Of a DNA stretch of 64,000 bases, positions 2 to 57,557 are shown piece by piece. Source of the DNA: Candidatus Vogelbacteria bacterium RIFOXYD1_FULL_51_18. Its GTDB lineage: Bacteria; Patescibacteriota; Minisyncoccia; Phycocordibacterales; UBA9988. The position numbers and the translations under genes were made by a program. Every line of letters starts with the position of its first letter. The first letter of the stretch is position 1. Under the pieces are notes generated by a model. The model made no database searches. It saw only the letters and a program-made list of their open reading frames with translations, and was not told where the DNA came from. The DNA is taken from contig MHTL01000014.1 of NCBI GenBank assembly GCA_001823095.1, forward strand, positions 1,881 to 65,880, given 5' to 3'.

Positions 2-958
2 TCAGTCTTCGGCGATGCCTTTCGCGATTTTATGGAGGAGAAGCCGGACGACGCGAGGATGATTATCGGCAAGGTTGCGCTTGCCATGAAAGCGCGCAAA
101 GCCGCTAAAGCCGCCAAAGACAGCGTCTTGCGCAAAGGCGCGCTTGAGGGAATGACGCTCCCAGGCAAGCTCGCCGACTGCCAGACCAAGAGTGCGGAGG
201 AGGCGGAGCTCTTTATTGTGGAGGGGGATTCTGCCGGCGGCTCGGGCAAGCAGGGCAGGGACCGTCGTACCCAGGCAGTGCTCCCCCTGAAGGGGAAAAT
301 TTTGAATGTTGAACGGGCGCGTTTGGATAAGATTCTTGCCTTTCAAGAAATTAAGCACCTCATCATTGCGCTCGGCGCCGCTATCGGCGATGCCTTTGAC
401 CTCTCTAAATTGCGCTATCATAAAATTATTATTGCAACCGATGCCGATGTGGATGGCGCGCACATCCGCACTCTGCTCCTTACACTCTTCTTCAGGCACT
501 TTGTGCGAATCATAGAAGGGGGCTACCTTTACATCGCCCAGCCGCCACTCTATAAAATTAAATATGGGAAAGAATCTTACTACGCGTTCAGCGATGACGA
601 AAAGGCAAAAGTCTTAAGCCGCCTTGGTGTGGATGCGAGCGCAGAGCCGGAGCCGGAACAAGAAGAAGAGAGCGAGGAAGAGCTTGCGGAAGAAGTCCGA
701 TCCGCCACGGCGGATCGGACTTCGGGGAGCAAGCGCACAAATAAAGTATCCATCCAGCGCTATAAGGGTCTTGGCGAGATGAATCCGGATGAGCTCTGGG
801 AGACCACCATGGACCCCGAGCGGCGCATTCTCAAACAGGTAACCGTGCACGATGCCGAGGAGGCCGACCGAACCTTTGACACCCTCATGGGCGCTGACGT
901 GAGCTCGCGCAGACACTTCATTCAAACTCACGCCAAACTGGCGAATTTAGATGTTTGA
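2..958 (+). CDS. gyrB: DNA gyrase subunit B, C-terminal (Toprim/GyrB tail) portion; 5' end lies upstream of the window
   Basis: Translation contains the EGDSAGGS Toprim motif, [10 protein letters not shown], and a [22 protein letters not shown]-terminal signature. The frame is open from the window edge. Confidence 0.9.
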
Positions 959-7494: not shown

Positions 7495-7507
7495 AATCCC
7501 ATTTTGT

Positions 7508-8086: not shown

Positions 8087-8087
8087 T

Positions 8088-16206: not shown

Positions 16207-16851
16207 GTGCTGAAGTTTTTGATCATCACCATTTTTCCCGAGAGCCTGGAATCCTACCTCGCATCTTCAATGATATTGCGTGCTGTGGCACGCAATATCA
16301 TTTCTGCACAAGCGATTAACCCGCGCGATTTTACTGACGACCCGCACCGGAAAGCAGACGACAAGCCCTACGGCGGCGGGCCGGGGATGGTGATGAAGGC
16401 GCTACCCATCATAAGGGCAGTGAGCGCGCTCAAATTGAAGAAGGGCGGAAAGAGAAAAATTCTCATTATGTCTCCACGGGGCAGACAGTTTACGCAGACG
16501 GAAGCAAAAAAATTTGCAAAAAAGTACGATGAGCTGGTGCTCATTGCCGGGCACTACGAGGGCATTGATGCGCGGGTGAAAAAAATATTAAAAGCAGAAG
16601 AAGTCTCGGTGGGACCTTACACACTCACCGGCGGGGAGCTACCCGCGCTCATCATTATTGATGCGGTCTCGCGGCATGTACCCGGCGTTTTAGGCAAGGT
16701 GGAGTCTCTGGAAGAGGGGAGGGCGACGAGCGGCGAGACCTACACTCGCCCCGAGCTCATCACCGTCAAAGGCAAAAAGTTCCGCGTCCCCGCAGTCCTC
16801 CTCTCCGGCCACCAAAAAAATATACACTCCTATCGCTCCACACAATCTTAA
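16207..16851 (+). CDS. trmD: tRNA (guanine37-N1)-methyltransferase (GTG start)
   Basis: IITIFPE...PYGGGPGMVM TrmD motifs. Confidence 0.9.
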   Translation: MLKFLIITIFPESLESYLASSMILRAVARNIISAQAINPRDFTDDPHRKADDKPYGGGPGMVMKALPIIRAVSALKLKKGGKRKILIMSPRGRQFTQTEAKKFAKKYDELVLIAGHYEGIDARVKKILKAEEVSVGPYTLTGGELPALIIIDAVSRHVPGVLGKVESLEEGRATSGETYTRPELITVKGKKFRVPAVLLSGHQKNIHSYRSTQS

Positions 16852-24043: not shown

Positions 24044-24049
24044 TGAAAA

Positions 24050-24085
24050 GACACCGAGTGTTTAGGTGCCCCAACACTCGGTGTC
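24050..24085 (+). terminator. hairpin terminator after rpoC (13-bp stem gacaccgagtgtt / aacactcggtgtc)
   Basis: Begins 7 nt after the rpoC stop; member of the ACACCGAGTGT stem family. Confidence 0.6.
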
Positions 24086-24098
24086 TCTCATTATACAT

Positions 24099-25830
24099 AT
24101 GCAGACTCCCGTTGAACAAATCAAGGAGCGGCTCTCCATCGTGGATGTGGTGGGGGAGTATGTAAAGCTCGAGCGCGCGGGCAAGGCCTTTCGTACGCGT
24201 TGCCCCTTCCATAACGAGAAGACCGCATCCTTTTACGTCTCGCCAGAGCGCGGGAGCTGGCACTGTTTTGGCTGTCACCGCGGGGGCGACATCTTTAGCT
24301 TTATGCAGGAGATAGAGGGCTATGATTTCCGCGCCGCGCTTGAAGCGCTCGCAACCCGCGCGGGAGTGACGCTTACAAACGTCAATCCCAAAGAGCAGTC
24401 GCTGAAGCACGAACTCTTGCGGCTCCTGGAAGAAGCGACGCTTTTTTATCAGCGTGCGCTCCTTACCACTGCGGAGCCGAAGGAATACCTTAAGAACCGT
24501 GGCATCGTCGCAGAGAGCGTGCGGCGTTTTCGCATCGGCTACGCGCCGCGCGAGTGGCGCGCTCTCTTTGACCATCTGAAGAGCAAGGGATTCAGCCCCG
24601 CGCGCATAGAGGATAGCGGCCTTGCCGTACGGCGGGGTGATAGCAGTGTATCACTCGGCGCCGGGCACTACGATCGATTCCGCGGGCGCATCATCTTCCC
24701 CATCGGCAATACCGAAGGGTCGGTTATCGGCTTCTCGGGCAGAATCCTGCCCGGAGCGGATACTGATACAGAGAAGGAAGCTAAGTACATTAACACGCCG
24801 CAGACGGCGCTCTATGACAAGTCGCGGGCGCTCTTTGGCTACCGCGAAGCGAAGGAGTCAATCCGCCATGAGGACCTTGCCATATTGGTAGAAGGTCAGA
24901 TGGATGTGGTGCTCTCGCACCAAGCAGGAGTGCGCAATGTAGTTGCGGTCTCCGGCACTGCACTTACCACGGGGCACCTCGGGATTCTGTGGCGGCTTAC
25001 CGAGAAGCTCCTCATGGCCTTTGACGCAGACGCCGCAGGAATTGCCGCCGCAGAGCGTAGTATCTACACGGCGCTGGAAGCCGGATTTGACGTCTCGGTT
25101 GCAACGCTCCCGGAAGGCAGGGACCCTGCTGACCTCGTGCGGGAGCTTCCCTCGCGCTGGCATGATGCTTTGCAAGGCGCCCTCCATGTGATAGATTTTT
25201 ACCTAACAGTTCTTTCACGCACGGTGCCGGATGTGCGGCAGCGAGGAAGGGCGGTGCGAGAACGCGTACTCCCCTTGGTTAGCCGTCTAAGAAGCGAAAT
25301 AGACAAGGCGCATTTTATAGGCAAGATTGCCGCGTCACTTTCCATCCCCGAAGAGCCGCTCTGGCGGGAACTCTCGCGGGTAAACGCTCCGAAGGGCACG
25401 GGGGAAATCCCACTTGCCGGCAAGATATCTGCGCTTGTTCCGGATCAGCCCGTGAAGACGGCGCAGTCCATTGCCCACGACCGACTCCGCGGCATCTGCT
25501 ACTGGCAAGAGCGTAGCAAGCGCCCCCTGATTGAGGTTGCGGCGCTTACGGAGACGCTTGCCGAATTTGAAGAGGGAGCCTCTGTAGTTTCTGACGCGCG
25601 GAAAGAAGAGCTCATTTTTGAAGCGGAGCAGATGTACGGTTCTGTGGAGAAACTGGACGTTGAAATCAAGTCGCTTCTCCAATCACTCTCGGAGTACCGA
25701 CTCCGAGAGTCCTTCTCCCGCGCGATGGAGGATCTCAAGCGCGCGGAGGTAGCAGGCGATACTGTCGCCGTGCAGACGGCACTCAAGGAATGCCAACGCA
25801 TTACGCAGCAATTAAATAATTTACAACGCC

Positions 25831-36371: not shown

Positions 36372-36423
36372 TCAAAAAAAAGCTCGTCCGCATCCCGACA
36401 CAAATGTGTCGGGATGCGGACGA
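36372..36423 (-). terminator. rho-independent terminator for the minus-strand beta-helix gene (21-bp perfect stem followed by T8 on the minus strand)
   Basis: gctcgtccgcatcccgacaca-aa-tgtgtcgggatgcggacgagc, preceded on the plus strand by aaaaaaaa. Confidence 0.7.
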
Positions 36424-36447
36424 GCCCACTACTATCTACTCCCTAAG

Positions 36448-38661: not shown

Positions 38662-38683
38662 ACAGTCGTATTTTAGCTTATTC

Positions 38684-40104: not shown

Positions 40105-40121
40105 ACGGATTAAGTATAGTC

Positions 40122-40157
40122 TTTTTCACGACTTTGTCAACTCTAATCGTGAAAAAC
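40122..40157. repeat. split variant of the TCACGA/TCGTGA hairpin: tttttcacga-[16 nt]-tcgtgaaaaa, 18 nt upstream of the Fic start
   Basis: 10-nt perfect inverted arms containing the TCACGA half-sites, separated by ctttgtcaactctaa; a further TTTCACGATTTTG half-site lies at about 40177. Confidence 0.5.
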
Positions 40158-40582: not shown

Positions 40583-41026
40583 TTAGCGTCTAACCTTATC
40601 GGTTTCAAGATGGTTTTCTGTTATGGCCACAACATAGAAAGTTCGTTCTGGCTCAATATCAAAATAGAATATCCGTGCTCTTTGTTGTAGTTTTATTTCC
40701 TTGAGTTCAATGCCTTCAGCAATGCCCCTGTATAGCTTTTTGTATTCGCTATCGTATCTCATAGGTATTCGGTCCACATAGTTTCTTTGAAAATCGGCCT
40801 CGGGGCGGATTTTTGTTCCTATGGTTTTGAGAGTTTCTATGGCCCTTTTTGCTTTGTTGCCGCCGAGCTCTGAAATCTCGCACATTCTTTCGTTGTATTT
40901 TGCAAAAGAGATTACATAAGGAATTGCCTCAGGTGCTTCTGTGTCCTGAGGCAATTCTTGAGCGATTTGAGAAAGTTTGTCTATTTCATCACTTGGCTCT
41001 GTGGCTTGTTTTGGAATGTCGGTCAT
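40583..41026 (-). CDS. uncharacterised 147-aa protein, candidate toxin partner of the Panacea-domain antitoxin (weak RelE/HigB-like C-terminus)
   Basis: ATGA overlap with the upstream Panacea gene. C-terminal YRGIAEGIELKEIKLQQRARIFYFDIEPERTFYVVAITENH resembles the RelE/ParE/HigB (Gp49-like) beta-strand core; acidic N-terminal 50 aa. Confidence 0.5.
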   Translation of the reverse strand: MTDIPKQATEPSDEIDKLSQIAQELPQDTEAPEAIPYVISFAKYNERMCEISELGGNKAKRAIETLKTIGTKIRPEADFQRNYVDRIPMRYDSEYKKLYRGIAEGIELKEIKLQQRARIFYFDIEPERTFYVVAITENHLETDKVRR

Positions 41027-41526
41027 TTGTGCTTCTTGGCCTCTTCCAATTTTTCAGAGTAGTAATTTTTCATTGATTCAAGGGATATTTCGTTTTCTGA
41101 GTTTTCATAATGCTGAAGGCCCTTTCGTGCTTCTCGCCACGGCTCTTCTGAGTGCGTGAGCATTTCCAAATAACCAGCATCAAGTTTTCCGTATGCGTTC
41201 CATACGGTATCAATAAGTTCTTTTGACTTGCCCGAAATGTTAAGCGTGTCTGATTTTATCTCTTCCTGTATCGGTTCAAATCCGAACTTTTTATATAGCA
41301 CATACAAACTGCGAACTGCTGGCCCGTGCACCCACGCTTCAATCGGCTCACTGAAGAGTTTTTTGTTATTCAATACCAAAGACCAGGCCTGTGCGTAATA
41401 GACCAGTTTTTGGAGTTTTTTATTCGTTATCGGCTCTTTTTCTTGGCTGGCGAGATATAAGAAATATCGGCCTACATCCCGTGCCTTTAAGGTTTTTTGA
41501 GAGTGTAAGGCCATAGGTATTTTCAT
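41023..41526 (-). CDS. Panacea-domain (DUF4065, SocA/PanA-like) antitoxin
   Basis: NKKLQKLVYYAQAWSLVLNNKKLFSEPIEAWVHGPAVRSLYVLY matches the Panacea core, and the N-terminal DVGRYFLYL matches the family leader. Confidence 0.75.
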   Translation of the reverse strand: MKIPMALHSQKTLKARDVGRYFLYLASQEKEPITNKKLQKLVYYAQAWSLVLNNKKLFSEPIEAWVHGPAVRSLYVLYKKFGFEPIQEEIKSDTLNISGKSKELIDTVWNAYGKLDAGYLEMLTHSEEPWREARKGLQHYENSENEISLESMKNYYSEKLEEAKKHK

Positions 41527-41537
41527 AGTAGCAATTC

Positions 41538-41555
41538 TGTAAACAGTTGTAAACA
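41538..41555 (-). promoter_or_regulatory. direct-repeat operator-like element TGTTTACA-ac-TGTTTACA (minus-strand sense) upstream of the Panacea gene
   Basis: Two 8-mers at 10-bp spacing, 12 nt upstream of the proposed ATG, in an AT-rich 110-bp gap after abiEii. Confidence 0.4.
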
Positions 41556-41638
41556 GACAGGAAGATGTTGATATTTCTGGCCGAGCGTGTAAACTAAAGT
41601 AAAGTATGAAAGAAGTAATGATGGATAGACTCATAATT

Positions 41639-42931
41639 TTATTTTAACAAGTCATCAAAGTCGTGTCTGATTAGATCTTCTTTCCGAAGAACGATCTGTT
41701 CCTTCTGATTCAGGTTGTCAGCGGATACACGGATAAGTTTTGTCATCAGGGTGTCACCAACAAGTTCATAGTTAATTTTCTTCAAATAGGCCTCGATTTT
41801 TTCGTAAAATAGAGAGGCGTATTCTTTCTGCTTTTTCTCTGATGTCGGTCTACTGCTAGAACCATTTGCTGAAAACTCGATGCTGTCACTCACTACGTTG
41901 TTGATTGGAAACGAAACCTCGATGTCTTTGAAAAGAAACCAGTACTCGCTCAAGTTATATATAATGCGCACGTGGTCGCCCTCTTTCGTGCTGTACTCAA
42001 AAATGAAAGAGAACACATCAGTCCGGAAGTCCTCGAACACTCGCACTCTTTCGTATTTTGATACGGTTCTGATTTTATATTTATCGCGTAGCTGAAAGAA
42101 AGTGTCGCGCCAGTTCGCAAGCCAGTTAGTGACGAAACGAGGGTCAAGAAAGAGCGGTGAGAGGTCATTTTTGAGATTTTCTTCGCTTACGTTGTTCATT
42201 TTTACCGCAAGTTTTGTGAACAGTGTCCGATAATCTTTTGCTTCTTCCACATTCTTTGCTTTGAGATAGTCAAGGTCGGGTACGATTTTCTTACTCATGT
42301 ACCAAAGTAAATCGTAGATGTCGCGCCCTTTTTCTTCATACACCGCCTCGCCGACGCCACGCGTTCCGCGAAGGAAAATTGCAGCGATTTTGCTCGCCAT
42401 AAGAGAAGAGAGGTTGTATGTCCGGATTACGAATGACAACTGTCCATGATTCTGCGGTATTCTTTCCGTAACAACGCCGCCGGGCGGTGCAAACTGATTA
42501 CAATCAACTTTCACATGAATCCATTCGGAAGCGTAGCCCTCAATCAAACTGCCAGCTCGGAATTTAAGCGTTATGCCTCGATTGTTCGTGATAGAGATTT
42601 TCAAAAATTCCGCGTCAACTCCATAGACTTTTGCGAAATGCTTTTCTGCCTCTTCTTTGAATTCGTTGAGAAAGTCGCTGTCAACCTTGTGGCTTACCTC
42701 AAAATCCAAATCAACGGACATTCGGTCGAGGTCATAGCAGATGCGAAGCGCTGAGCCGCCATACATTATCCATTTGTTATATTCCGGATGATGATAAGTG
42801 AAATCGAGGACATAGAACTGCAACTCCTCTTTAAGAACGTTGAGGCGCGTCTCGGGATCGGAAATGCTAACGCCATAGGTCGAAAGGCCATCAAGTTTGC
42901 TTTTCAGGACTGTTAGTATCTGATCACTCAT
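41639..42931 (-). CDS. abiEii: AbiEii/AbiGii-family nucleotidyltransferase toxin (DUF1814)
   Basis: IMYGGSALRICYDLDRMSVDLDFEVS matches the AbiEii NTase motif (GGTAL...R.SEDLDF); 430 aa. Confidence 0.85.
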   Translation of the reverse strand: MSDQILTVLKSKLDGLSTYGVSISDPETRLNVLKEELQFYVLDFTYHHPEYNKWIMYGGSALRICYDLDRMSVDLDFEVSHKVDSDFLNEFKEEAEKHFAKVYGVDAEFLKISITNNRGITLKFRAGSLIEGYASEWIHVKVDCNQFAPPGGVVTERIPQNHGQLSFVIRTYNLSSLMASKIAAIFLRGTRGVGEAVYEEKGRDIYDLLWYMSKKIVPDLDYLKAKNVEEAKDYRTLFTKLAVKMNNVSEENLKNDLSPLFLDPRFVTNWLANWRDTFFQLRDKYKIRTVSKYERVRVFEDFRTDVFSFIFEYSTKEGDHVRIIYNLSEYWFLFKDIEVSFPINNVVSDSIEFSANGSSSRPTSEKKQKEYASLFYEKIEAYLKKINYELVGDTLMTKLIRVSADNLNQKEQIVLRKEDLIRHDFDDLLK

Positions 42932-43541
42932 GGAGATATGTTTTTACTTTTTCATAAAATTTCTTCCGCTCCTCCTCGTCCATCTCATCAATATCTATCC
43001 GCAATTCTTTTACCATCTTTGTAATATCTTCAAACCGGACGCTTCGAAACTGATGCGTTCTGAAGTACAGCAAGTCGAATAGTGCTTTTGATGGAGAAGC
43101 AATAAAAAAATCAAATTTTCCTTTCACAAGAGAGTAATCCGAAAAGAGATTCTTATTGATTGACTGGTATGAAAAAGTCCCCGCCTTCGTTTCATAATCC
43201 CGTGTGATTTTCGGTGTAACCGACGTGATAGAGCGTATCGCTTCAGTGGCGAGATTATAATACTGGAGCGCAGTCCACGAGCTTACGTAGGAAGGCGTAC
43301 GGAGAATGTTTGCAAGGTAGAAAGAATACGAGATATCGCTTTTATTATCTGCAAAAAAATCGGCGGTAATATACAAGCCATTTTTCAGCGGCAAAATCTC
43401 TTTGCGCTTCAAAAAACGGCTGATGTATGTATTTACCGTACTATTTTTCAGCCCCAACTGACTACCAAGCTGGTATACTGTACTTTTGGTGAAATGGGGC
43501 AAACTATTAAGCTGTTCCAACAGATTTTTCTTGCTTTTCAT
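42924..43541 (-). CDS. abiEi: AbiEi-family antitoxin/transcriptional regulator (wHTH N-domain)
   Basis: N-terminal wHTH (TVYQLGSQLGLKNSTVNTYISRFLKRKEILPLKNGLYI); 8-nt overlap with abiEii. Confidence 0.8.
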   Translation of the reverse strand: MKSKKNLLEQLNSLPHFTKSTVYQLGSQLGLKNSTVNTYISRFLKRKEILPLKNGLYITADFFADNKSDISYSFYLANILRTPSYVSSWTALQYYNLATEAIRSITSVTPKITRDYETKAGTFSYQSINKNLFSDYSLVKGKFDFFIASPSKALFDLLYFRTHQFRSVRFEDITKMVKELRIDIDEMDEEERKKFYEKVKTYLHE

Positions 43542-44061
43542 AACTATGACAATAGTGTATCATATATGAAATGAGCAGTCAAAAGCTCATATAGCCCGCC
43601 CCGCCTTTTTGCCACCCCATTCCAATTCAAATCCCCCCCGCGAAAAAAATAAGAATGGAGAAGGGGCAAAAGGCGAGGGCGGAACGCCGAGGCTCTGCGA
43701 GGCGTTGGGCGGAATGGTTAGAGTCACCACAGAGTCCGAGCGTACGATTCAATCAGAAGCCACCACGCACGCGGAGCGTGCGATTAGTCATCAGTCGGAT
43801 TATTGCGAAAATATGTTCGAACTTTTTCTAACAAACACAGCAAACTTAGATACCCTTCGGAATTTTTGGAACCGAGGGGCGCGCTTCGCGCGCTGTATGG
43901 AAAATCGGCGAGGAGGGCAAAGGATTTTTTCGGAGTGGCAAAAAGCGCGCTTCGCGCGCAGGTGGGGGTTCCATGATGAGTACATCATTCAAAACAAAGT
44001 TTTGCGAGCCGACGGGCGGCAATTTCAAAGCGATTGAGAGCATAGCTTTCCCTTTTTCTAT

Positions 44062-45435
44062 ATGAATAAATTCTTTCTCTACGCGCGAAAATCTACCGAC
44101 GAGCCGGACAGGCAGATTTTGTCTATCGAAGCGCAGATACACGAGTTGAAAGAATTTGCAGAGCGAGAGCATTTGGAGATCGTGGACACTTTTATCGAGT
44201 CGCAAACGGCGAAGGAGCCGGGGCGACCTATTTTTAATCAAATGCTCTCGCTTATTGAAAAAGGGAAAGCCAATGGAGTTGTGGCGTGGCACCCAGATCG
44301 TCTCGCGCGCAACAGCGTTGATGGTGGGCGTATTATCTACCTTATTGACATCGCTAAGGTGGTTGCGCTCAAATTTCCGACTTTTTGGTTTGAACCCACG
44401 CCACAAGGCAAATTTATGCTCTCAATCGCTTTCGGGCAGAGCAAATACTATGTTGATAATCTTTCAGAGAATGTGAAGCGCGGTTTGCGACAGAAAGTGC
44501 GCCGTGGCGAGCAAAGCGGACAAGCGCCGACCGGATATTTGAATGATAAAGCGAATCGTGTGATCGTACCCGATCCGGCGCGCTTTAAGTTTGTCCGCGA
44601 ATTGTTCGAAGCATACGCCACGGGTTCACATTCTCTGAAAGAAACTGGGAATTTGCTCTCTGCCCGAGGCTTGGTTAGTCGGAACGGCAATGTGCTTACC
44701 ATTTCGAATATTCAAATGATTTTGCGTAATCCGTTTTACTACGGGGCGTTTAAGTTCAATGGCGAGGAGTATCAAGGTAAGCACAAGCCAGCGATAACAA
44801 AGAAACTTTTTGATCAGTGCCAAGCGGTGATGGCGCGAAAAGCGCACCCCACTAAGCGAGGCGAGCAAAAGCATATTCTTCGCGGAGTTTTTTCGTGCGC
44901 AGAGTGCGGTTGCGGTATCACAAGCGAAGTGCAGAAAGGTCATGTGTATTATCGGTGCACGAAAAAGAAAGGTATCTGCGCACAACCCTATGTCCGCGAA
45001 GAGTTGCTCGCCTCGCAAATCACCGAGTATCTGCAAAAAGTTTCTTTGTCTTCGGCGTGGGCAAATGAGATGCTTGCTCTCTTGGAGAAGGAGCAAGCAG
45101 AAACTACCCACGCCGATGCCGATTTCGTTCAAAATCTAAAGCTCAAAATTAAGGAGTGCGAGGAGAAGCTTGACCGGCTTCTTGACGCGCATCTTGAGCA
45201 AACGCTATCGAGCGAAGAATATGTCGCCAAGAAGCGCGTTCTCCTCGACTCTAAAATTGATTTTGAGCAGAAGTTGAAGGATTTTGAGCGAAACGGCAAT
45301 CATTGGCTCGAACCGGCCCGACAATTCGTTTTAGCGGCTCAACAAGCCAAAATTATCGCTTTGCAAGAAAATCCCGTCGCGGGACGGGATTTTCTCAAAA
45401 GAATTGGCTCGAACCACGTCGACAATTCGTTTTAG
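44062..45435 (+). CDS. large serine recombinase (resolvase catalytic domain + recombinase domain + zinc ribbon); C-terminus apparently frameshifted by a 101-bp tandem duplication
   Basis: Catalytic YARKSTDEPDRQILSIEAQ (Ser nucleophile) and a zinc ribbon CAECGCG...YYRC. The alternate frame 45303-45644 re-encodes the same peptide and continues to the tRNA. Confidence 0.9.
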   Translation: MNKFFLYARKSTDEPDRQILSIEAQIHELKEFAEREHLEIVDTFIESQTAKEPGRPIFNQMLSLIEKGKANGVVAWHPDRLARNSVDGGRIIYLIDIAKVVALKFPTFWFEPTPQGKFMLSIAFGQSKYYVDNLSENVKRGLRQKVRRGEQSGQAPTGYLNDKANRVIVPDPARFKFVRELFEAYATGSHSLKETGNLLSARGLVSRNGNVLTISNIQMILRNPFYYGAFKFNGEEYQGKHKPAITKKLFDQCQAVMARKAHPTKRGEQKHILRGVFSCAECGCGITSEVQKGHVYYRCTKKKGICAQPYVREELLASQITEYLQKVSLSSAWANEMLALLEKEQAETTHADADFVQNLKLKIKECEEKLDRLLDAHLEQTLSSEEYVAKKRVLLDSKIDFEQKLKDFERNGNHWLEPARQFVLAAQQAKIIALQENPVAGRDFLKRIGSNHVDNSF

Positions 45436-45520
45436 CGGCTCAACAAGCCAAAATTATCGCTTTGCAAGAAAATCCCGTCGCGGGACGGGATTTTCTCAAA
45501 AGAATTGGCTCGAACCACGT
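45302..45520. repeat. 101-bp tandem direct repeat, 2 full copies plus a 17-nt third copy, each starting ATTGGCTCGAACC
   Basis: Units at 45302-45402 and 45403-45503 are identical apart from a 6-nt patch (ggcccg vs acgtcg); partial unit at 45504-45520. Confidence 0.9.
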
Positions 45521-45629
45521 TTTGCGCTCGCAAGCGATTTGCTTTGAACCTAAAAAGTCGTGGAAAATTCTTGCCGATTTGCCCGCCGAGGGGCGAAGCC
45601 CCGAGGCGGAGAACTCGTATCATCCTATT

Positions 45630-45705
45630 TGGCTCCGCGGCTAGGGCTCGAACCTAGGACATCCTCGTTAACAGCGAGGCGCTCTACCAACTGAGCTACC
45701 GCGGA
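45630..45705 (-). tRNA. tRNA-Asn (anticodon GTT), CCA encoded
   Basis: Reverse complement reads TCCGCGG-TA-GCTC-AGTTGGT-AGAGC-G-CCTCG-CTGTTAA-CGAGG-ATGTC-CTAGG-TTCGAGC-CCTAG-CCGCGGA-G-CCA, a clean cloverleaf. Confidence 0.85.
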
Positions 45706-45756
45706 ATATATTTTTCCGCGGTAGCTCAGTACTGAGCCCTGCCTGTCGGCAGGCAG
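45690..45756. repeat. inverted copy of the first 16 nt of tRNA-Asn (TCCGCGGTAGCTCAGT) 9 nt beyond the tRNA 5' end, followed by a ctgcctg/caggcag hairpin
   Basis: 45690-45705 (tRNA 5' end, minus) and 45715-45730 (plus) are exact reverse complements. Confidence 0.7.
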
Positions 45757-47682: not shown

Positions 47683-47736
47683 CATATTTGACAGAGAAGA
47701 GCTCTGGGACTCACTTAATTTTTTGTACAGAACAAA

Positions 47737-47778
47737 AATCATCACATCCTATCACGATCGTGATAGGATGTGATGATT
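47737..47778. repeat. 42-nt perfect palindrome aatcatcacatcctaTCACGATCGTGAtaggatgtgatgatt (TCACGATCGTGA-core hairpin family), 8 nt upstream of the pyrD-like ORF start
   Basis: Exact self-complement. Confidence 0.85.
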
Positions 47779-47785
47779 TGTAACA

Positions 47786-49384: not shown

Positions 49385-50182
49385 ATGAATACAAAAGAGT
49401 TACTGATGCGGGATAAGTATCACGGGCATGCCGATGCCGGCTCTTTGGAGAATGATTTAATGCGCATCGCAGCGGGGGAGCCAATTGACTACGTCATTGG
49501 CTGGAAGCCATTTTGCGGCATAGAGGCAGACCTCTCGTTGCAGCCGCTCATCCCGCGCGAGGAGACGGAATACTGGGTGAGTGAGTGCATTCGGTTTTTG
49601 GGAAGTGAGACCCGCCGCGGCGGGTCTCACTTCCAGAATTTGCGATGCTTGGATATGTGCACCGGCTCTGGATGTATCGCTGCCGCGCTCCTTAAGGCAT
49701 TCTCATTTGCATCTTGCGATTGTGTGGATAATGACCCACAGATGCTCAAAGCTGTGTGGCTCACGATGGAGCGCAATAGCATCTCACCCGAGCGCTACCG
49801 ACTCATAGAGAGTGATATGTGGGAGCATGTTGAGGGAGTCTATGACCTTATCTGCGCAAACCCGCCCTATGTGGGAGAGCAGGAAGAAGTGGGGGAAGGT
49901 GTGCGTGAGCACGAGCCGACGCAGGCAGTATTTGCGGGGGATGCAGGACGCGCGGCGCTCTCAAAATTTTTTGAAGGATTAGAGGAGCACTTGGCAGAGG
50001 GAGGCCCGCCCGTGCCGAACGGCACGTTCGAGCGTGGACTTGCTTACTGCGAATTCAGCCCCATGCAAGAAGCATGGGTGCAAGAGCATCTCACAACTCT
50101 CGCGTGCCAGGGAAAAATCTGCAGAGACCAGTATGGGCGCGCTCGATTCCTGCGTATGGGCAAGCGCGTTTTGTACGCATAG
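49385..50182 (+). CDS. prmC: release-factor glutamine N5-methyltransferase
   Basis: SAM-binding LDMCTGSGCIA and the NPPY motif. Confidence 0.8.
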   Translation: MNTKELLMRDKYHGHADAGSLENDLMRIAAGEPIDYVIGWKPFCGIEADLSLQPLIPREETEYWVSECIRFLGSETRRGGSHFQNLRCLDMCTGSGCIAAALLKAFSFASCDCVDNDPQMLKAVWLTMERNSISPERYRLIESDMWEHVEGVYDLICANPPYVGEQEEVGEGVREHEPTQAVFAGDAGRAALSKFFEGLEEHLAEGGPPVPNGTFERGLAYCEFSPMQEAWVQEHLTTLACQGKICRDQYGRARFLRMGKRVLYA

Positions 50183-51022: not shown

Positions 51023-51454
51023 ATGAAGGTGATTGTACTGCAGAAGGAGCGGATGATTTTTGATCTTGTCGCTCGTTTTCTGAATGAGAAATACTTGGGT
51101 GCCATTGTGGGAACTATTGACCCTGAAGAGGCGCTCAAGAGTCTGCGACAAGAACAAAAGCAGGAGCGGGATGCGGTGCTCATCACGTGCCATTACCCGA
51201 AGACCATGCGCGATGCGCTTGCAATCGCGCGCTTAGTAAAAAGGACTCTGCCCGGAGTTCCCGTCTATACTTACTCGGCAATACAGGTTTGTGGCGCCGA
51301 GGACTTGGCGTTAATTGATGGACAGATTAAAAAGCCATGCGGAGCAAGGAACTCGGCTGGACATTTTGCAACGGTTGCCCAGGTTTTCTCTCGCCTTGCC
51401 GATGGTGCGAGTGCGGATGAAATTAAAAACGAGTTTCCTGGTATGGTCATCTAG
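51023..51454 (+). CDS. pseudo-receiver (CheY-like fold) domain protein lacking canonical acidic pocket
   Basis: Strong RBS GGAGGAATAAAAAATG; MKVIVLQKE...AVLITCHYP has the receiver topology, but QK replaces DD and C replaces the phospho-Asp. Confidence 0.45.
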   Translation: MKVIVLQKERMIFDLVARFLNEKYLGAIVGTIDPEEALKSLRQEQKQERDAVLITCHYPKTMRDALAIARLVKRTLPGVPVYTYSAIQVCGAEDLALIDGQIKKPCGARNSAGHFATVAQVFSRLADGASADEIKNEFPGMVI

Positions 51455-51459
51455 CTGTC

Positions 51460-51476
51460 AAACACCGAGTGTCGGG
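51460..51476. repeat. half-copy of the ACACCGAGTGT hairpin family (aaacaccgagtgtcggg)
   Basis: Reverse complement matches the right arm plus loop edge of the copies at 24050 and 54927. Confidence 0.5.
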
Positions 51477-53948: not shown

Positions 53949-54314
53949 ATGCGTATTGATATTTCTGCGAAGGGGATAGAGATTACGGGAGCGATACGCG
54001 ATTACGCTAAGAAAAAGATTTCTGCCCTCTCGCGCTTTCTCAAAGGAGCGAGGGAGCTTCGCGCCTCTCTGATGCTTGGCAAAGAGACGGCGCACCATCG
54101 TGAAGGCGAGGTGTTTGTGGTGGAAGCAGAGCTCTCTGTTGACGGGAGGAGTTTTCATAGCGATGAGAAGGGGGATGACCTCTACGCGACGATAGACGCT
54201 GTGCAGGAGGAATTGGAGCGCATGATTACAAGCGAAAAGGAAAAACGGGGGAGCATGCTGCGCCGCGGCGGCAGAAAAGTGAAGGAGATATTCAGGAGAT
54301 TTTACCGCGCATAA
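53949..54314 (+). CDS. hpf: ribosome hibernation promoting factor (HPF/RaiA family)
   Basis: MRIDISAKGIEITGAIRDYAKKKISAL...DLYATIDAVQEELERMI is typical HPF. Confidence 0.85.
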   Translation: MRIDISAKGIEITGAIRDYAKKKISALSRFLKGARELRASLMLGKETAHHREGEVFVVEAELSVDGRSFHSDEKGDDLYATIDAVQEELERMITSEKEKRGSMLRRGGRKVKEIFRRFYRA

Positions 54315-55167
54315 TTGACAGGTCGCCGTAACCACGGAGAAAATCTTGGTAGCTCATTTCGCGCCCGCCCTCGGGGATGACGCGGTCAATGGAGAGCCCT
54401 CTGCCCTCCCTGTGCGCGGCAATGATGACTACACGCGATTTTTTGCCTTTGTGCGTGATGGTAAAGAAGGTTCGCGGCCAGGGCTCGTAGGCGCGGATTT
54501 TTCTGAAATTTAATTCACTGTCATCCGCAAGATTAACAAAGCCGTCTTCTTTTTTTATCATTTTTGTATAGGTTGCTTTGATCTCGTCTTGCGGGGTCTC
54601 TTGTGCCGTGCCGTCTGCCACAGCAGGGAGCACGGAAGCAAGAAGTTTGCCTCCCTCATGGGCCAATTTTTCTGCCAGTTCCGGATACCACTCATCTCCG
54701 CGCAGGGGAACTTCCTTTTGCGCAATGATTGCTCCATGATCCATTTTTGCGTCTATGCGCATTACCGTCACTCCGGTGAGTGGCGCGCCGCCTAAGATGG
54801 CTCCCTCAATGGGAGTTGCGCCGCGGTAACGCGGCAGGAGCGACGGGTGAATGTTCACTGCGCCGCGCTCGGGAATGTTGAACACAGCTTCGGGAATGAT
54901 TTTCCCGTACGAGGCGACAATAAAAAGGCAGACACCGAGTGTTTGAAATTCCCGACACTCGGTGTCTGCCAAGTTCTCGGGCTGAATGAAAGGAACACCG
55001 TGCGCAAGAGCCCACTCTTTTAAAGGCGGCGGGGTGAGCTTGTGTGCTCTCCCTGCGGGCCTGTCGGGCATGGTGACAATCAGCGAGGACGGATATCCCG
55101 CCTGCACGAGCTCCTCAAGCACGAGTATGGAGAAATCATCACTACCCCAGAATGCGTAATTAATCAT
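54292..55167 (-). CDS. fmt: methionyl-tRNA formyltransferase
   Basis: VASYGKIIPEAVFNIPERGAVNIHPSLLPRYRGATPIE formyltransferase core; contains an in-frame 44-nt palindrome. Confidence 0.9.
   Translation of the reverse strand: MINYAFWGSDDFSILVLEELVQAGYPSSLIVTMPDRPAGRAHKLTPPPLKEWALAHGVPFIQPENLADTECREFQTLGVCLFIVASYGKIIPEAVFNIPERGAVNIHPSLLPRYRGATPIEGAILGGAPLTGVTVMRIDAKMDHGAIIAQKEVPLRGDEWYPELAEKLAHEGGKLLASVLPAVADGTAQETPQDEIKATYTKMIKKEDGFVNLADDSELNFRKIRAYEPWPRTFFTITHKGKKSRVVIIAAHREGRGLSIDRVIPEGGREMSYQDFLRGYGDLSIMRGKIS
54927..54970. repeat. 44-nt perfect inverted repeat ggcagacaccgagtgt-[12]-acactcggtgtctgcc inside the fmt coding sequence
   Basis: 16-bp perfect arms; encodes ADTECREFQTLGVC in frame; shares ACACCGAGTGT with the rpoC terminator stem. 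Confidence 0.85.
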
Positions 55168-55660
55168 CTTTGTGCGGAGGAATTTCTCTGATATTTTTTG
55201 CTTTGTCAATAAAGAGAACGCCGTCAAGATGGTCAAGCTCGTGCTGGAAAATTTGAGCAAGGAGGCCTCCCGCGCCGCGCGCAAACTTTTTTCCGTGCTC
55301 ATCATAGGCCTCCACCGTCGCCTGCGCCGCCCGCGTCACTTCCCCGTAGAGCCAGCGCACGGAGAGACATCCCTCTTCCATTTTTTTGGTGCGCTTGGAA
55401 ACACGCAGGAGCCGCGGATTGATAAAAACCGTGCGTATGTCGCGCTCGCTTTCAAGGTAGGCGTTGGGAGAAACCACAAAAATCCGCAGAGGGAGTCCGA
55501 TCTGCGGCGCCGCGAGCGCCACCCCGTCGTCCTCTCGCGCGAGCGCCCTTTTCATATTCTTGAGTATCGTACGCAATTTAGCACTGCCAAAAAGCTTTTC
55601 CGGAACAGATCCTGCCCCTTTCCGGAGCGCCGCGTGGTCTCGGTTAACGATGCGAACCAT
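55160..55660 (-). CDS. def: peptide deformylase
   Basis: GVALAAPQIG, EGCLSV and HELDHLDG motifs; overlaps fmt by 8 nt (def-fmt operon). Confidence 0.9.
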   Translation of the reverse strand: MVRIVNRDHAALRKGAGSVPEKLFGSAKLRTILKNMKRALAREDDGVALAAPQIGLPLRIFVVSPNAYLESERDIRTVFINPRLLRVSKRTKKMEEGCLSVRWLYGEVTRAAQATVEAYDEHGKKFARGAGGLLAQIFQHELDHLDGVLFIDKAKNIREIPPHKDD

Positions 55661-55667
55661 CATTAGA

Positions 55668-57557
55668 TTATAGAATACTTGAAGGGTCAATATCAACTGC
55701 ATAGCGGGGAGACAACTCTTTCACAATACCCGCGAGTCGCTTATCCGGCCAGTGGGGAAAAGCTATTTTAAGGAGGATGTGCATAGCTCCCGTAGGACCG
55801 GCGTATAGTAATGGATTCCATTCGCGCAATTCCTCGGTAAGTTTTTCCATGTCTGTACGGATGGTATCGCGTTTTCCTTGCCGGCTGATTTTAATCAGTG
55901 TTGCGTAGGGCGGATAGTTGAGCGCGCGCCGAGCCTCAAGCTCGGCGCGCTGGAACTCCACAAGCTGTCCGCGCGCCGCATACGCGATAGTTGGCGCATC
56001 GGGGTTCCTTGTCTGAATGGCAAAATGCTCCACAGCCCGCTCTCGCAAGCGCGTAAGCATGACGAAGAGTCGCTCGCTGATTTTAAAGTCCGGTATGACG
56101 AGGAGCGTGTCCACCGAAATAATACCCACCAACTCAATGGGCGCTTGCAGGTAGGGGATAAGCATCTCTGTCCCGAGGAGAATACTCCCGCGTGTTGCAT
56201 AAAATTGCCGTACGCGCTCTTCTGCCACGGCGCGGCTCTTAACCGAGTCGCTGTCAAGGGAGAAGACCGGCACCCGGGGAAAACGCTCCTTGAGCTCCTC
56301 GCGCGCCTTCTGTGTCCCAATGCCGAGCATAACAAGCTTCCAACTGCCGCAGTTCTGACAACCTTCCGGCGGTTCCTGCAGAGCTCCGCACTGGTGGCAG
56401 GCGTAGATGTACTCACTTTCCCCGTTCTGCCGGCCAGCGGATTCATGGAGTACGACGGGGCTTCCACAGCGCAAGCAACGCACCGTCTCGCCGCAGTCAC
56501 CGCAGACGGTGGAAGGGGCAACGCCGCGCCGCGCGCCCAAAAGCGCTACGTGCCCTGCCTTTTTCACTGTTTCGGTAATCAGCTTTCCCAGCGCCTCGCC
56601 GATGGCGCGACCTTTCTCTTTTTTCTTTACCGCGCCGCGCTCCTCATTGCGCATGTTGATAAGATGCACTTCGCCGTGGGTATGCGCGCGCGTTTTGACG
56701 GGGACGAGAGGGGTAAGAGCGCCTGATTCTATGCGTAGCATCGATTCTGCGGAAAGCACGCTGTCTCCTGTAATAAAGCGCACCGAGCTTGCGTCGCAGA
56801 GAAATTCCGCAAAGCGGCGCATGTCAATAAATGGCCGCGCAAGCGCCTTGTACGCGCTGGTATTTTCCTGGTCAACAATAAGCGTCTCAACGGAGCCGCC
56901 GGTGAGCGCGAGCGCTGTCGGGGTGCCCACAATGAGGAGCGCGGTCCCATTGGCGAATTCTTTGATTATTTTTCCGAGCTCCTCCGTGCTCGTCTCGCCA
57001 TGCACGATACGCACAGAATTATTAATGCCTCGTCCCAGCACGAGAGCTGCGGCGGAGACGTCTTTGACTGTCGGTAGAATCACGAGCACGGAACGGCGTT
57101 TGACAAAGGTCTCGCGGATAAGTTTTTTATAGAGCGATAGCCGCTCCTCGTCACTGTCGGAGACCACATAGCGCTCCTCGCGAAGGCCACATTGATGTTG
57201 AGTAAGGGCGGGGAGAGATTCTCCGCAATCAAGAACAGTAGATGAGAGCACAACGGAGAGAACAAGAGAGAGCGGCGCGGCATAAAAATCCGCGCAGGCG
57301 CGCGCGGCGTCCAAGAATGCGGGGGAGAGATAGGCGCTGGTAAGCAGTTTGCCTATTTTTTTAAGGGAAAAACGCGAAGCCTTGAGCTCGGCCTTGTGCG
57401 TCACGGCGCTCTCGCAACCCGCTACCAGGGCGCGTACGCGCTTGCCCCGCAGGGGTATCTCCACCAGGTCCCCGGGGGAGAGTAGGGAGGCGGAGTAGTA
57501 CGTGAGCTCCTCCACAAAAGCCCCGCGGGCTATGGGGATTACCGTAACAACATTCAT
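55668..57557 (-). CDS. priA: primosomal protein N' (PriA helicase)
   Basis: N-terminal 3'-end-binding domain, helicase core, and Cys-rich zinc ribbons (CGDCGETVRCLRCGSP...CHQCGALQ...CQNCGS). Confidence 0.85.
   Translation of the reverse strand: MNVVTVIPIARGAFVEELTYYSASLLSPGDLVEIPLRGKRVRALVAGCESAVTHKAELKASRFSLKKIGKLLTSAYLSPAFLDAARACADFYAAPLSLVLSVVLSSTVLDCGESLPALTQHQCGLREERYVVSDSDEERLSLYKKLIRETFVKRRSVLVILPTVKDVSAAALVLGRGINNSVRIVHGETSTEELGKIIKEFANGTALLIVGTPTALALTGGSVETLIVDQENTSAYKALARPFIDMRRFAEFLCDASSVRFITGDSVLSAESMLRIESGALTPLVPVKTRAHTHGEVHLINMRNEERGAVKKKEKGRAIGEALGKLITETVKKAGHVALLGARRGVAPSTVCGDCGETVRCLRCGSPVVLHESAGRQNGESEYIYACHQCGALQEPPEGCQNCGSWKLVMLGIGTQKAREELKERFPRVPVFSLDSDSVKSRAVAEERVRQFYATRGSILLGTEMLIPYLQAPIELVGIISVDTLLVIPDFKISERLFVMLTRLRERAVEHFAIQTRNPDAPTIAYAARGQLVEFQRAELEARRALNYPPYATLIKISRQGKRDTIRTDMEKLTEELREWNPLLYAGPTGAMHILLKIAFPHWPDKRLAGIVKELSPRYAVDIDPSSIL

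What the first reader, a model, noticed from the sequence alone, without database searches (positions are those of the whole stretch)
54927..54970. 44-nt perfect inverted repeat embedded in-frame inside fmt, belonging to a terminator-hairpin family
ggcagacaccgagtgt-ttgaaattcccg-acactcggtgtctgcc has 16-bp perfect arms and lies within the fmt coding sequence, where it encodes ADTECREFQTLGVC. The arm core ACACCGAGTGT is the same as the stem of the rpoC terminator (24050-24085), and a half copy lies at 51460-51476. Compared with E. coli Fmt the region is about 5 residues longer, consistent with a MITE-like hairpin element having inserted in frame into a loop of an essential gene. Alternatively it is a programmed mRNA structure causing translational pausing or attenuation within the def-fmt operon.
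Basis: seen in the sequence. Interest (0 to 1): 0.6.

Follow-up and report, generated by a model that had tools for sequence, protein, structure and literature searches.

The report
Mini palindromic repeat inside fmt gene
A perfect 44-base hairpin sits in frame inside the essential fmt gene of a tiny groundwater (CPR/Parcubacteria) bacterium; it is one copy of a small dispersed palindromic repeat that also occurs between genes, in other proteins and in 23S rRNA, so it looks like tolerated selfish or self-perfecting DNA, not a conserved fmt control element.

Summary
Positions 54927-54970 form a 16-bp perfect inverted repeat with a 12-nt loop inside fmt (54292-55167, minus strand), and it is translated as A67-C80. 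Its core ACACCGAGTGT recurs in the rpoC-dnaG spacer (24049-24086) and as a half copy (51462-51476).

It is not a length insertion in Fmt. The segment is as long as in hairpin-free relatives and one residue shorter than in solved Fmt.

It is not a conserved fmt structure either. About 80 Parcubacteria fmt genes lack it. Only three lineages carry hairpins at that spot, each with a different sequence.

The same unit (ACACCGAGTGT-YGGG..-ACACTCGGTGT) was found in four other metagenome contigs:
- at a 23S rRNA helix tip (47-nt insertion);
- in an EndoQ gene (+33 nt compared with its 82-84% identical relatives);
- in two further ORFs.

The arms are themselves palindromes, so the layout resembles a miniature REPIN. 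A 94%-identical relative carries a compensatory arm change. The genome holds about 100-fold more long perfect hairpins than shuffled sequence, several of them inside genes. One, in trmD, was perfected in situ within a conserved motif.

Best reading: a dispersed nested-palindrome element lodged in a permissive Fmt loop and kept perfect by templated correction. On the sense strand it resembles an intrinsic terminator; this effect is untested.

The parts
54927..54970 (-). 44-nt perfect hairpin element inside fmt: arms 54927-54942 and 54955-54970 (16 bp), loop 54943-54954. The sense (minus) strand reads GGCAGACACCGAGTGT CGGGAATTTCAA ACACTCGGTGTCTGCC and encodes A67-C80 of Fmt.
54917..54926 (-). 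U-rich tail (UUUUUAUUGU on the sense strand) directly 3' of the stem. It is made by the conserved codons L-F-I-V of the LFIVASYG strand and gives the element an intrinsic-terminator look.
   Evidence: The site is not listed by the terminator scan because the loop exceeds 8 nt.
54292..55167 (-). fmt (methionyl-tRNA formyltransferase), 291 aa, intact. The catalytic N105/H107/D143 are invariant columns.
55160..55702 (-). def (peptide deformylase), upstream gene of the same operon; overlaps fmt by 8 nt.
   Evidence: Pfam labels
24049..24086 (.). Second full copy of the family, AGACACCGAGTGTT taggtgcccc AACACTCGGTGTCT. It fills most of the 55-nt spacer between the rpoC stop (24043) and the dnaG start (24099). 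There is no T-run on the + strand.
51462..51476 (+). Half copy ACACCGAGTGTCGGG: left arm plus the first 4 loop bases, identical to the fmt sense strand. It lies just after the stop of ORF 51023-51454 and before a canonical terminator.
36382..36425 (.). Intergenic 20-bp perfect hairpin whose inner part, CCCGACAC aaat GTGTCGGG, shares the GTGTCGGG motif of the family. Possibly related.
692..723 (+). Same phenomenon with a different sequence: 14-bp perfect hairpin GAAGTCCGATCCGC cacg GCGGATCGGACTTC inside gyrB, in the acidic linker between Toprim and GyrB_C.
16269..16302 (+). Same phenomenon: 15-bp perfect hairpin inside trmD, within the conserved SSMIKRA.A.KLIS motif. It was perfected in situ; the relative L215 has only 9/15 complementary positions.
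25685..25710 (+). Same phenomenon: 11-bp nested palindrome ACTC-TCG-GAGT accg ACTC-CGA-GAGT in the C-terminal part of dnaG.
49601..49634 (+). Same phenomenon: 15-bp hairpin GGAAGTGAGACCCGC cgcg GCGGGTCTCACTTCC in a PrmC/HemK-like methyltransferase. The L002 orthologue has a different hairpin at the same place; L209 and L210 have none.
55924..55950 (-). Same phenomenon: 11-bp GC-rich hairpin GCGCGCCGAGC ctcaa GCTCGGCGCGC inside priA.

Best explanation
The fmt hairpin is one copy of a small dispersed palindromic repeat. The unit is ACACCGAGTGT - YGGG + 5-9 nt - ACACTCGGTGT, 33-35 nt long, and its arms are themselves short palindromes around CGA/TCG. [quoted passage not shown] In this Parcubacteria lineage intergenic space is very short. 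Such units survive in spacers, at rRNA helix tips and in structurally permissive, poorly conserved loops of proteins. The arms contain no stop codon in any frame, so a copy can simply be translated. In fmt the copy occupies the variable connection between strand 60-61 and the LFIVASYG strand, replacing the usual ..ELLxxxWD segment, and Fmt stays intact. Once in place the palindrome is extended (GGCAG/CTGCC beyond the 11-nt core) and kept perfect by intrastrand templated correction, that is, a replication template switch between the arms. This process also makes and perfects unique hairpins elsewhere in the genome. Shown: family membership, insertion behaviour at other loci, absence from nearly all fmt orthologues, and a compensatory change. 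Inferred: how the copy entered fmt without changing its length, the copying machinery, and the correction mechanism. A side effect is probable but untested: on the fmt mRNA the element is a -34 kcal/mol stem followed by U5, a terminator-like signal, presumably read through only while ribosomes follow the polymerase closely.
For: Family in the window: 2.5 copies sharing 13-15 nt per arm; chance expectation is 0.42 and 0 of 100 shuffles reach the observed count. Same unit elsewhere: L164, a 47-nt insertion at the apical loop of a 23S rRNA helix (Rfam alignment); L122, inside EndoQ, where the 82-84% identical relatives L211 and L212 lack exactly 33 nt (11 aa) and the flanks CCGTCGGC/GCCGACGG have also become complementary; L157 and L173, inside ORFs, read in all three frames and in both orientations. 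Not a property of fmt: of about 84 fmt loci most have only 4-7 bp stems at the homologous spot; only WIN, L002 (a different 13-bp hairpin) and L080 (a different 22-bp hairpin, Fmt about 7 aa longer) carry long ones. Similar behaviour in a related genome: L002 has its own family, GAAGTCGGACTTC, in fmt, a methyltransferase gene and a third ORF. Nested-palindrome architecture: 16 of 136 hairpins are nested against 3.8 expected. Maintenance of pairing: L001 is 94.4% identical in DNA and has 3 changes in the arms; two form a compensatory G-C to A-T pair that costs L77F and the third gives G.U; the trmD palindrome was perfected from 9/15 to 15/15 within a conserved motif. Genome-wide excess: 19 perfect stems of >=12 bp against 0.2 in shuffles, with at least six inside Pfam-confirmed genes. 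Tolerance in the protein: the segment is loop/short helix/loop with the lowest confidence of the folded part (pLDDT about 70) and is variable in alignment A1. Literature: REPINs are inverted REP doublets forming hairpins with frequent compensatory changes (PMC3116915); palindromic elements are known in frame in Rickettsia genes (PMC10969869); template switching creates and maintains perfect stems (PMC8794818).
Against: No empty-site allele of fmt was found: all members of the >=93% clade carry the hairpin, and the next relative is only 67% identical. Fmt is not longer than hairpin-free orthologues, so a simple 34-44-nt insertion did not happen; insertion plus deletion, or an overwrite, must be assumed. 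No target-site duplication or conserved flanking tetranucleotide is seen. Copy number is low: 2.5 copies in about 84 kb of this genome. No cognate mobilising enzyme was identified; the IS200-type transposase just outside the window is flanked by unrelated hairpins. The hairpin sits at nearly the same codon positions in WIN and L002, which could instead indicate a selected structure.
Confidence: 0.58

Rival explanations
1. The hairpin is a selected cis-acting RNA structure of the def-fmt mRNA. It would act as an intragenic attenuator, pause or terminator, or as an RNase target, that tunes Fmt relative to Def. It would terminate when translation is uncoupled from transcription and be read through when ribosomes follow the polymerase.
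For: On the sense strand a 16-bp stem (-34.2 kcal/mol, z = -7.7) is followed directly by UUUUUAUUGU. The 94%-identical relative keeps the stem through a compensatory pair that costs an amino-acid change, plus a G.U pair that pairs only on the sense strand. The sister lineage L002 also has a perfect hairpin within 9 nt of the same place, and L080 has one as well.
Against: It is absent from about 80 other Parcubacteria fmt genes, including L209 and L210 of the same gene neighbourhood. The U-tract is forced by the conserved L-F-I-V codons. The same hairpin sequence occurs in unrelated genes, in rRNA and in a spacer, in both orientations and without U-tracts. The L002 hairpin is followed by no U-run. 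Many other genes of this genome carry unrelated perfect hairpins.
Confidence: 0.15
2. No mobile element is involved. The lineage has a strong mutational drive towards palindromes, through replication template switching at quasi-palindromes. This may be because hairpin- or 3'-end-processing nucleases are missing. The fmt hairpin would then have been written in situ or copied from an ectopic template such as the rpoC-dnaG hairpin. 'Families' would be products of ectopic templating and gene conversion rather than transposition.
For: Fmt length is unchanged, which fits an overwrite rather than an insertion. The trmD hairpin is unique and was perfected in situ inside a conserved motif by a cluster of about 9 substitutions in 30 nt. 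Flanks of the L122 copy became complementary. The three WIN/L001 differences are explained by one substitution plus one arm-to-arm conversion (inference). Within each genome the copies share extra flank bases: AGACACCGAGTGT in both WIN copies, GAAGTCGGACTTC in the L002 copies. PMC8794818 documents the mechanism.
Against: The same 11-nt arms plus the YGGG loop start occur in different genes of at least three or four different organisms. In EndoQ and in 23S rRNA the copy is a net insertion of a whole unit. Local template switching cannot produce this without a donor already in the genome.
Confidence: 0.2
3. The two ACAC-N3-GTGT palindromes, spaced 22-24 bp apart, are a double binding site for a dimeric DNA-binding protein (a regulator or nucleoid protein). 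The hairpin potential would be incidental.
For: Each arm is itself a palindrome (ACAC CGA GTGT / ACAC TCG GTGT) with constant spacing. The window contains clear operator-like palindromes of another type (I1, I7).
Against: Copies lie in the middle of coding sequences and inside 23S rRNA, where an operator makes no sense. The second arm is the exact reverse complement of the first, including the asymmetric centre, which points to pairing, not to two equivalent duplex sites. The sister element L173b keeps the pairing while changing the arm sequence.
Confidence: 0.04
4. It is a chance palindrome or an assembly artefact.
For: None beyond the fact that metagenome assemblies can create inverted joins.
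Against: 0.07 stems of >=13 bp are expected per shuffled window. The sequence is identical in five independent assemblies from NCBI, ENA and JGI. A diverged but still paired version exists in L001.
Confidence: 0.01

Closest known systems
[quoted passage not shown]
   Same: Two short units, each itself palindromic, lie in inverted orientation around a less conserved spacer and fold into one longer hairpin. The elements are dispersed in the genome. Singlets or half copies exist. Compensatory changes keep the stem.
   Different: This element is 33-44 nt, against about 70-110 nt for a REPIN. It has few copies per genome, where REPINs have hundreds. It sits inside coding sequences and rRNA rather than in extragenic space. 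It has no consistent GTAG/CGTC tag. No RAYT flanked by these units was found; the nearby Y1 transposase is of the IS200 type with unrelated hairpins.
Rickettsia palindromic elements (RPEs; Ogata et al. 2000/2002, as reviewed in PMC10969869)
   Same: Palindromic repeats are inserted in frame in unrelated, often essential, protein genes (and RNA genes) of a reduced genome. They are translated as extra surface segments compatible with the fold.
   Different: RPEs are about 100-150 bp and each family encodes a conserved peptide in one frame. Here the unit is three to four times smaller, is read in all three frames and both orientations, and in fmt does not lengthen the protein.
Hairpins created and maintained by replication template switching / quasi-palindrome correction (PMC8794818, PMC5453318)
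   Same: Perfect arms are present. Clusters of nearby substitutions make a stem perfect (trmD). A compensatory pair is explained by one conversion event. The stem extends outward into the flanks.
   Different: Template switching alone gives locus-specific sequences. It does not explain the same 11-nt arms and loop start in different genes of different organisms.
Coding palindromes and hairpin elements of organelle genomes: Nematomorpha mitochondrial genes (PMC6649704); double-hairpin elements and GC clusters of fungal mtDNA (the latter recalled from memory, not checked here)
   Same: Perfect inverted repeats are embedded in protein-coding and rRNA genes of compact genomes, and both arms are translated.
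   Different: These are organellar. Arm lengths reach hundreds of bp in Nematomorpha, and there is no sequence relationship to this element.
Rho-independent (intrinsic) terminator
   Same: A GC-rich stem is followed immediately by a U-run on the transcribed strand of fmt.
   Different: It is located 200-240 nt into an 876-nt essential gene. The loop is 12 nt. Other family members lack a U-run on the transcribed strand.

Membership tests
REP / REPIN | Short palindromic unit present as an inverted doublet that folds into a hairpin | tested here: met
   Arms ACAC-CGA-GTGT and ACAC-TCG-GTGT are each palindromic and are inverted relative to each other. Nested architecture is found in 16 of 136 hairpins against 3.8 expected.
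REP / REPIN | Extragenic location | tested here: not met
   Copies lie inside fmt, EndoQ, two other ORFs and 23S rRNA. Only the rpoC-dnaG copy and the half copy are intergenic.
REP / REPIN | High copy number within one genome | tested here: inconclusive
   There are 2 full copies and 1 half copy in about 84 kb of this species. The whole genome could not be scanned.
REP / REPIN | Cognate RAYT (Y1 transposase) gene flanked by the same REP units | tested here: not met
   The Y1_Tnp gene 1.2 kb beyond the window (L213 12211-12645) is called an IS200/IS605 transposase by NCBIfam NF033573. It is flanked by ACCCCGCGGcttgCCGCGGGGT-type hairpins, which are unrelated and absent from the window. The rest of the genome was not searched.
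REP / REPIN | GTAG or CGTC tetranucleotide tag at one end (PMC3733652) | tested here: not met
   Inspection of the flanks of seven copies: only L122 has CGTC/GACG in its flanks.
Rickettsia palindromic elements (RPE) | In-frame residence in protein-coding genes without disrupting them | tested here: met
   The fmt ORF is intact and its catalytic residues are conserved. EndoQ carries +11 aa in frame.
Rickettsia palindromic elements (RPE) | Length of about 100-150 bp with a family-specific conserved peptide | tested here: not met
   The unit is 33-44 nt. It is translated as DTEC.., TPSV.. or HRVS.. depending on the locus.
MITE | Terminal inverted repeats plus target-site duplication; derived from an IS | tested here: not met
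   The whole element is the inverted repeat. No direct repeats flank any copy, and the filled/empty comparison in EndoQ shows no duplication.
Intrinsic terminator | GC-rich stem-loop followed by a U-tract on the transcribed strand | tested here: met
   Sense strand: 16-bp stem followed by UUUUUAUUGU. The scan tool skips it only because the loop exceeds 8 nt.
Intrinsic terminator | Position at the end of a transcription unit; actual termination | not testable with these tools
   It lies 197-240 nt into fmt. No transcript data are available.
Conserved cis-regulatory RNA of fmt | Structure conserved at the homologous position across orthologues | tested here: not met
   Best stems are 4-7 bp in most of the 80 loci. 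Long hairpins occur only in WIN, L002 and L080, with unrelated sequences. There is no Rfam match.
Template-switch (quasi-palindrome) product | One arm ancestral, the other rewritten as its reverse complement; clustered substitutions | tested here: inconclusive
   The signature is clear for trmD. For fmt neither arm can be shown to be ancestral, because the nearest hairpin-free relatives are only 62-64% identical.

The most novel reading that the evidence does not exclude
CPR/Patescibacteria genomes harbour a previously undescribed class of ultra-short (about 33-nt) nested-palindrome elements. The elements are stop-free in their arms. They colonise coding sequences of essential genes and rRNA helix tips, turn over at the same permissive sites (fmt and the methyltransferase in two genomes carry different, genome-specific hairpins), and grow by self-templated palindrome extension. 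This would be a distinct way in which selfish or self-perfecting DNA remodels proteins in minimal genomes, possibly driven by an HUH/Y1 enzyme or by loss of hairpin-processing nucleases.
Probability: 0.4. Interest if true: 0.7.

Novelty: new variant of a known kind. Interest (0 to 1): 0.55.

Why it matters
If confirmed genome-wide, the finding would have four consequences.
- It would show that even ultra-small, gene-dense CPR genomes carry proliferating palindromic DNA, and that this DNA survives by living inside genes and rRNA rather than between them.
- It would add a bacterial case beside Rickettsia RPEs in which selfish or mutationally driven palindromes rewrite surface segments of essential proteins. 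In trmD they even override conserved residues.
- It would offer a natural system for studying palindrome growth by template switching.
- It has practical value. Such hairpins break assemblies, mimic terminators and can mislead RNA-structure or regulatory-element scans in CPR metagenomes.

Tried and rejected
1. Insertion test against orthologues.
2. Conserved fmt RNA structure. About 80 Parcubacteria fmt loci show no hairpin at the spot. Rejected.
3. Metagenome scan with ACACCGAGTGTYGGG. The 15-mer was too short, and most of the 120 rows are chance hits. Only 4 carried the full hairpin.
4. Viral contig scan for the full hairpin: no hits.
5. Rfam, gathering and permissive thresholds: only sub-threshold miRNA-like hairpin noise.
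6. L205-L208, fetched as '93% cluster' relatives, turned out to be the same species (>99% nt). They are uninformative for evolution but useful as independent assemblies.
7. Link to the neighbouring IS200-type transposase. Its end hairpins are unrelated and absent from the window, so no link was shown.
8. Terminator scan tool. It does not list the site because its loop limit is 8 nt, so the site was judged by hand.
9. Invertible-segment idea (16-bp inverted repeats around a 12-nt spacer). Not pursued: the spacer is too short for recombinase synapsis (my own judgement; not tested), and none of the assemblies read shows an inverted loop.
10. DNA uptake sequence idea. Rejected because of the low density (5 core motifs in 64 kb) and the many unrelated hairpin sequences.
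Full report
**Observation**

The window comes from a Parcubacteria (CPR) genome; the Fmt protein is 100% identical to that of 'Parcubacteria group bacterium GW2011_GWF2_52_12'.

- Positions 54927-54970 read ggcagacaccgagtgt-ttgaaattcccg-acactcggtgtctgcc: two 16-nt arms, perfectly complementary, 12 nt apart.
- They lie inside fmt, which runs on the minus strand from 55167 (MINYAFWG..) to 54292 and overlaps def (55160-55702) by 8 nt.
- The hairpin is read as A67-D-T-E-C-R-E-F-Q-T-L-G-V-C80.
- As RNA either strand folds at -34.2 kcal/mol (z about -7.7). As DNA it folds at about -20 kcal/mol.
- Perfect stems of >=13 bp are expected 0.07 times per shuffled window.
- The same sequence occurs in five independent assemblies of the species.
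- The core ACACCGAGTGT recurs in both arms of a 14-bp hairpin that fills the 55-nt spacer between rpoC (stop 24043) and dnaG (start 24099). It also occurs once as ACACCGAGTGTCGGG at 51462-51476. That is 6 matches against 0.42 expected.

**Not an extra piece of Fmt and not a conserved fmt structure**

- In an alignment with 18 relatives the stretch between the conserved QP and LFIVASYG is 17 residues in the window, against 16-18 in relatives. Against a solved Fmt (3q0i) the window protein is one residue shorter there.
- The segment is the least conserved part of the N-terminal domain. In an AlphaFold model (mean pLDDT 88) it is loop, short helix 72-76, then loop, between strands 60-61 and 81-84, with pLDDT about 70.
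- I fetched fmt DNA from 80 further Parcubacteria and looked for the best perfect stem in the 100 nt before the ASYGK codons. Most have 4-7 bp, which is chance level.
- Long hairpins occur in only three lineages: the window species; its sister L002-L004 (67% Fmt identity), with a quite different 13-bp hairpin GAAGTCGGACTTC cagaaa GAAGTCCGACTTC about 9 nt upstream; and L080, with a 22-bp hairpin and a Fmt about 7 residues longer. L075, with a 10-bp GC-rich stem, is a weaker fourth case.
- The next relatives, L209 and L210 (62-64%), have none.
- A hairpin here is therefore sporadic and lineage-specific, as expected for a permissive site rather than a conserved regulatory structure. Rfam has no matching family.

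**A dispersed family**

A metagenome scan with ACACCGAGTGTYGGG mostly returned chance hits. Four contigs carried the whole hairpin with the same 11-nt arms, a loop beginning YGGG, and variable flanks.

- L164: a 47-nt insertion at the apical loop of a 23S rRNA helix, at about model position 282.
- L122: inside an endonuclease Q gene. The closest homologues (82-84% identical; L211, L212) lack exactly 33 nt (11 residues) there. In the filled allele the flanks CCGTCGGC/GCCGACGG have also become complementary.
- L157: inside a 433-aa ORF.
- L173: inside an insertion in a YraN-like protein. Seventeen nt downstream sits a second hairpin with the same layout but covarying arms (GAGGT-CGA-ACCTC gggctctca GAGGT-TCG-ACCTC).

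The copies are read in all three frames and in both orientations relative to transcription, and the arms contain no stop codon in any frame.

On an alignment of eight copies the inner 12 pairs are paired in every sequence, with changes on both sides at 10 positions. These sequences were chosen as hairpins, so only the L001 pair and the 5/41 pair carry independent weight.

**Architecture**

Each arm is itself a small palindrome (ACAC-CGA-GTGT; the other arm is ACAC-TCG-GTGT). The element is therefore an inverted doublet of a palindromic unit.

- The same nested layout is seen in the dnaG hairpin of the window, in the L002 family, in L080 and in L173b.
- Among 136 perfect hairpins in 627 kb of held sequence, 16 are nested against 3.8 expected.
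- This is the layout of REPINs, REP doublets forming hairpins, in which compensatory changes are also common (PMC3116915), but at a third of the size.

**A genome-wide habit**

- The window has 19 perfect stems of >=12 bp against 0.2 in shuffles.
- Besides ordinary spacer hairpins, several lie inside Pfam-confirmed genes: gyrB (692-723), trmD (16269-16302), dnaG (25685-25710), a PrmC-like methyltransferase (49601-49634), fmt and priA (55924-55950).
- The L002 genome behaves alike. Its family GAAGTCGGACTTC is in fmt, in the orthologous methyltransferase (there +9 aa compared with L209/L210) and in a third ORF. It also has TGTCCGACAC-cga-GTGTCGGACA, which shares ACACCGAGTGTCGG with the window family.
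- L209 and L210 have almost none.
- The trmD case is instructive. The hairpin lies in the conserved motif SSMIKRA.A.KLIS. The window encodes MILRAVARNII, and the 83%-identical relative L215 has only 9 of 15 complementary positions. A cluster of about 9 substitutions in 30 nt made the palindrome perfect at the expense of conserved residues.
- That is the signature of replication template switching, which can create and maintain perfect stems (PMC8794818).

**Maintenance in fmt**

- The only diverged relative with the same hairpin (L001) is 94.4% identical over 1060 nt.
- It differs at three arm positions. G13-C4' became A-T, a compensatory pair in which GAG to GAA is silent and CTC to TTC costs L77F. 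C9 became T, giving G.U on the sense strand.
- One substitution followed by one arm-to-arm conversion explains all three differences. This is inference.

**Mechanism proposed**

Shown:
- The fmt hairpin is a member of a dispersed nested-palindrome family.
- Members are net insertions in EndoQ and 23S rRNA.
- They are tolerated in variable loops.
- Pairing is kept through compensatory change.
- The lineage perfects palindromes in situ.

Inferred:
- A copy was written into the variable Fmt loop. Fmt did not lengthen, so this happened by insertion plus deletion or by an overwrite from an ectopic template such as the rpoC-dnaG copy, with which it shares AGACACCGAGTGT.
- The palindrome then extended by GGCAG/CTGCC.
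- It is kept perfect by intrastrand templating.

The machinery is unknown. An IS200/IS605-type Y1 transposase lies 1.2 kb beyond the window end. Its end hairpins are unrelated to this family and do not occur in the window.

**Possible effect on expression**

- On the fmt sense strand the stem is followed at once by UUUUUAUUGU, which is formally an intrinsic-terminator signal 240 nt into the gene.
- The U-run is dictated by the conserved L-F-I-V codons, and other family members lack such a run on the transcribed strand. I therefore regard this as a side effect that translation probably masks.
- A role as a conditional attenuator of Fmt relative to Def cannot be excluded without transcript data.

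**Comparison with known systems**

- It works like a REPIN/REP element in layout and like a Rickettsia palindromic element in lifestyle, living in frame in essential genes of a reduced genome (PMC10969869).
- It fails defining features of both. Against REP/REPIN: it is not extragenic, has no RAYT association, no GTAG/CGTC tag and low copy number. Against RPE: it is far shorter than 100-150 bp and encodes no conserved peptide.
- It has no target-site duplication, so it is not a classical MITE.
- Coding palindromes are also known in Nematomorpha mitochondria (PMC6649704).
- Library searches found no description of such elements in CPR/Patescibacteria.

**Verdict**

The feature is real and non-random. 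It is best read as a new, very small variant of the palindromic-repeat kind, resident in a coding sequence. Interest is moderate to fairly high, mainly because of the genome-wide pattern it reveals.

Noticed in passing
L213 12141-12685 (same species; about 1.2 kb beyond the window's 3' end): An IS200/IS605-family Y1 transposase gene (144 aa; NCBIfam NF033573) is flanked by near-identical hairpins ACCCCGCGGcttgCCGCGGGGT and ACCCCACGGcttgCCGTGGGGT. This genome therefore encodes a single-strand hairpin-recognising transposase. No copy of its hairpins occurs in the window.
   Followed up: partly
window 16269-16302 (trmD): A 15-bp perfect palindrome lies inside the conserved TrmD motif (relatives SSMIKRAxAxKLIS; window SSMILRAVARNIIS). 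The 83%-identical relative L215 has only 9/15 complementary positions, so the palindrome was perfected in situ at the cost of conserved residues.
   Followed up: yes
window 49601-49634 and L002 9289-9325: The orthologous PrmC/HemK-like methyltransferase carries a perfect hairpin at the same place in two genomes. The inner sequences differ (both start GGAAGT and end ACTTCC), and the L002 copy adds 9 aa. L209 and L210 have none.
   Followed up: partly
window 7458-7495 and 8087-8124: Two copies of TGTAATAATCyT-N14 (CACGATCGTG-like centre)-ArGATTATTACA bracket a PaaX_M-like regulator gene (7508-8086, minus) and lie upstream of dnaE (4177-7422, minus). They are probably operators. Other TCACgatcGTGA-centred palindromes occur at 27443-27476, 47736-47779 and in L215 3257-3290.
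   Followed up: no
window about 38000-45750: A low-GC island (0.41-0.44 against about 0.55) contains a Fic-domain protein (39202-40104) and a large serine recombinase (44062-45435). It also holds a 30-nt hairpin present twice (45366-45395 and 45467-45496) and a tRNA (45633-45705, minus) whose first 17 nt are repeated inverted at 45714-45730. It looks like an integrated mobile element next to a tRNA.
   Followed up: no
window 692-723 (gyrB) compared with L214: Within-species polymorphism inside the gyrB hairpin: GAAGTC.. in the window and GGAGTC.. in L214. This turns an A-T pair into G.T. The rest of 13 kb is 99.93% identical.
   Followed up: partly
L213 15726-15769: A three-arm palindrome (GCGCGTCTC / GAGACGCGC / GCGCGTCTCGC) lies inside a 266-aa ORF just outside the window. 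It is a further example of intragenic palindromes in this species.
   Followed up: no
window 3049-3160 and 3652-3763: A 112-nt direct repeat (about 93% identical) links the 5' parts of two adjacent N_methyl (pilin-like) genes (3023-3556 and 3575-4171).
   Followed up: no
L173 2168-2254: Two adjacent 35-nt nested-palindrome hairpins, 17 nt apart, have the same layout and similar GGG..A loops but fully covarying arms (AACAC-CGA-GTGTC and GAGGT-CGA-ACCTC). Both are translated within an acidic insertion of a YraN-like protein.
   Followed up: partly
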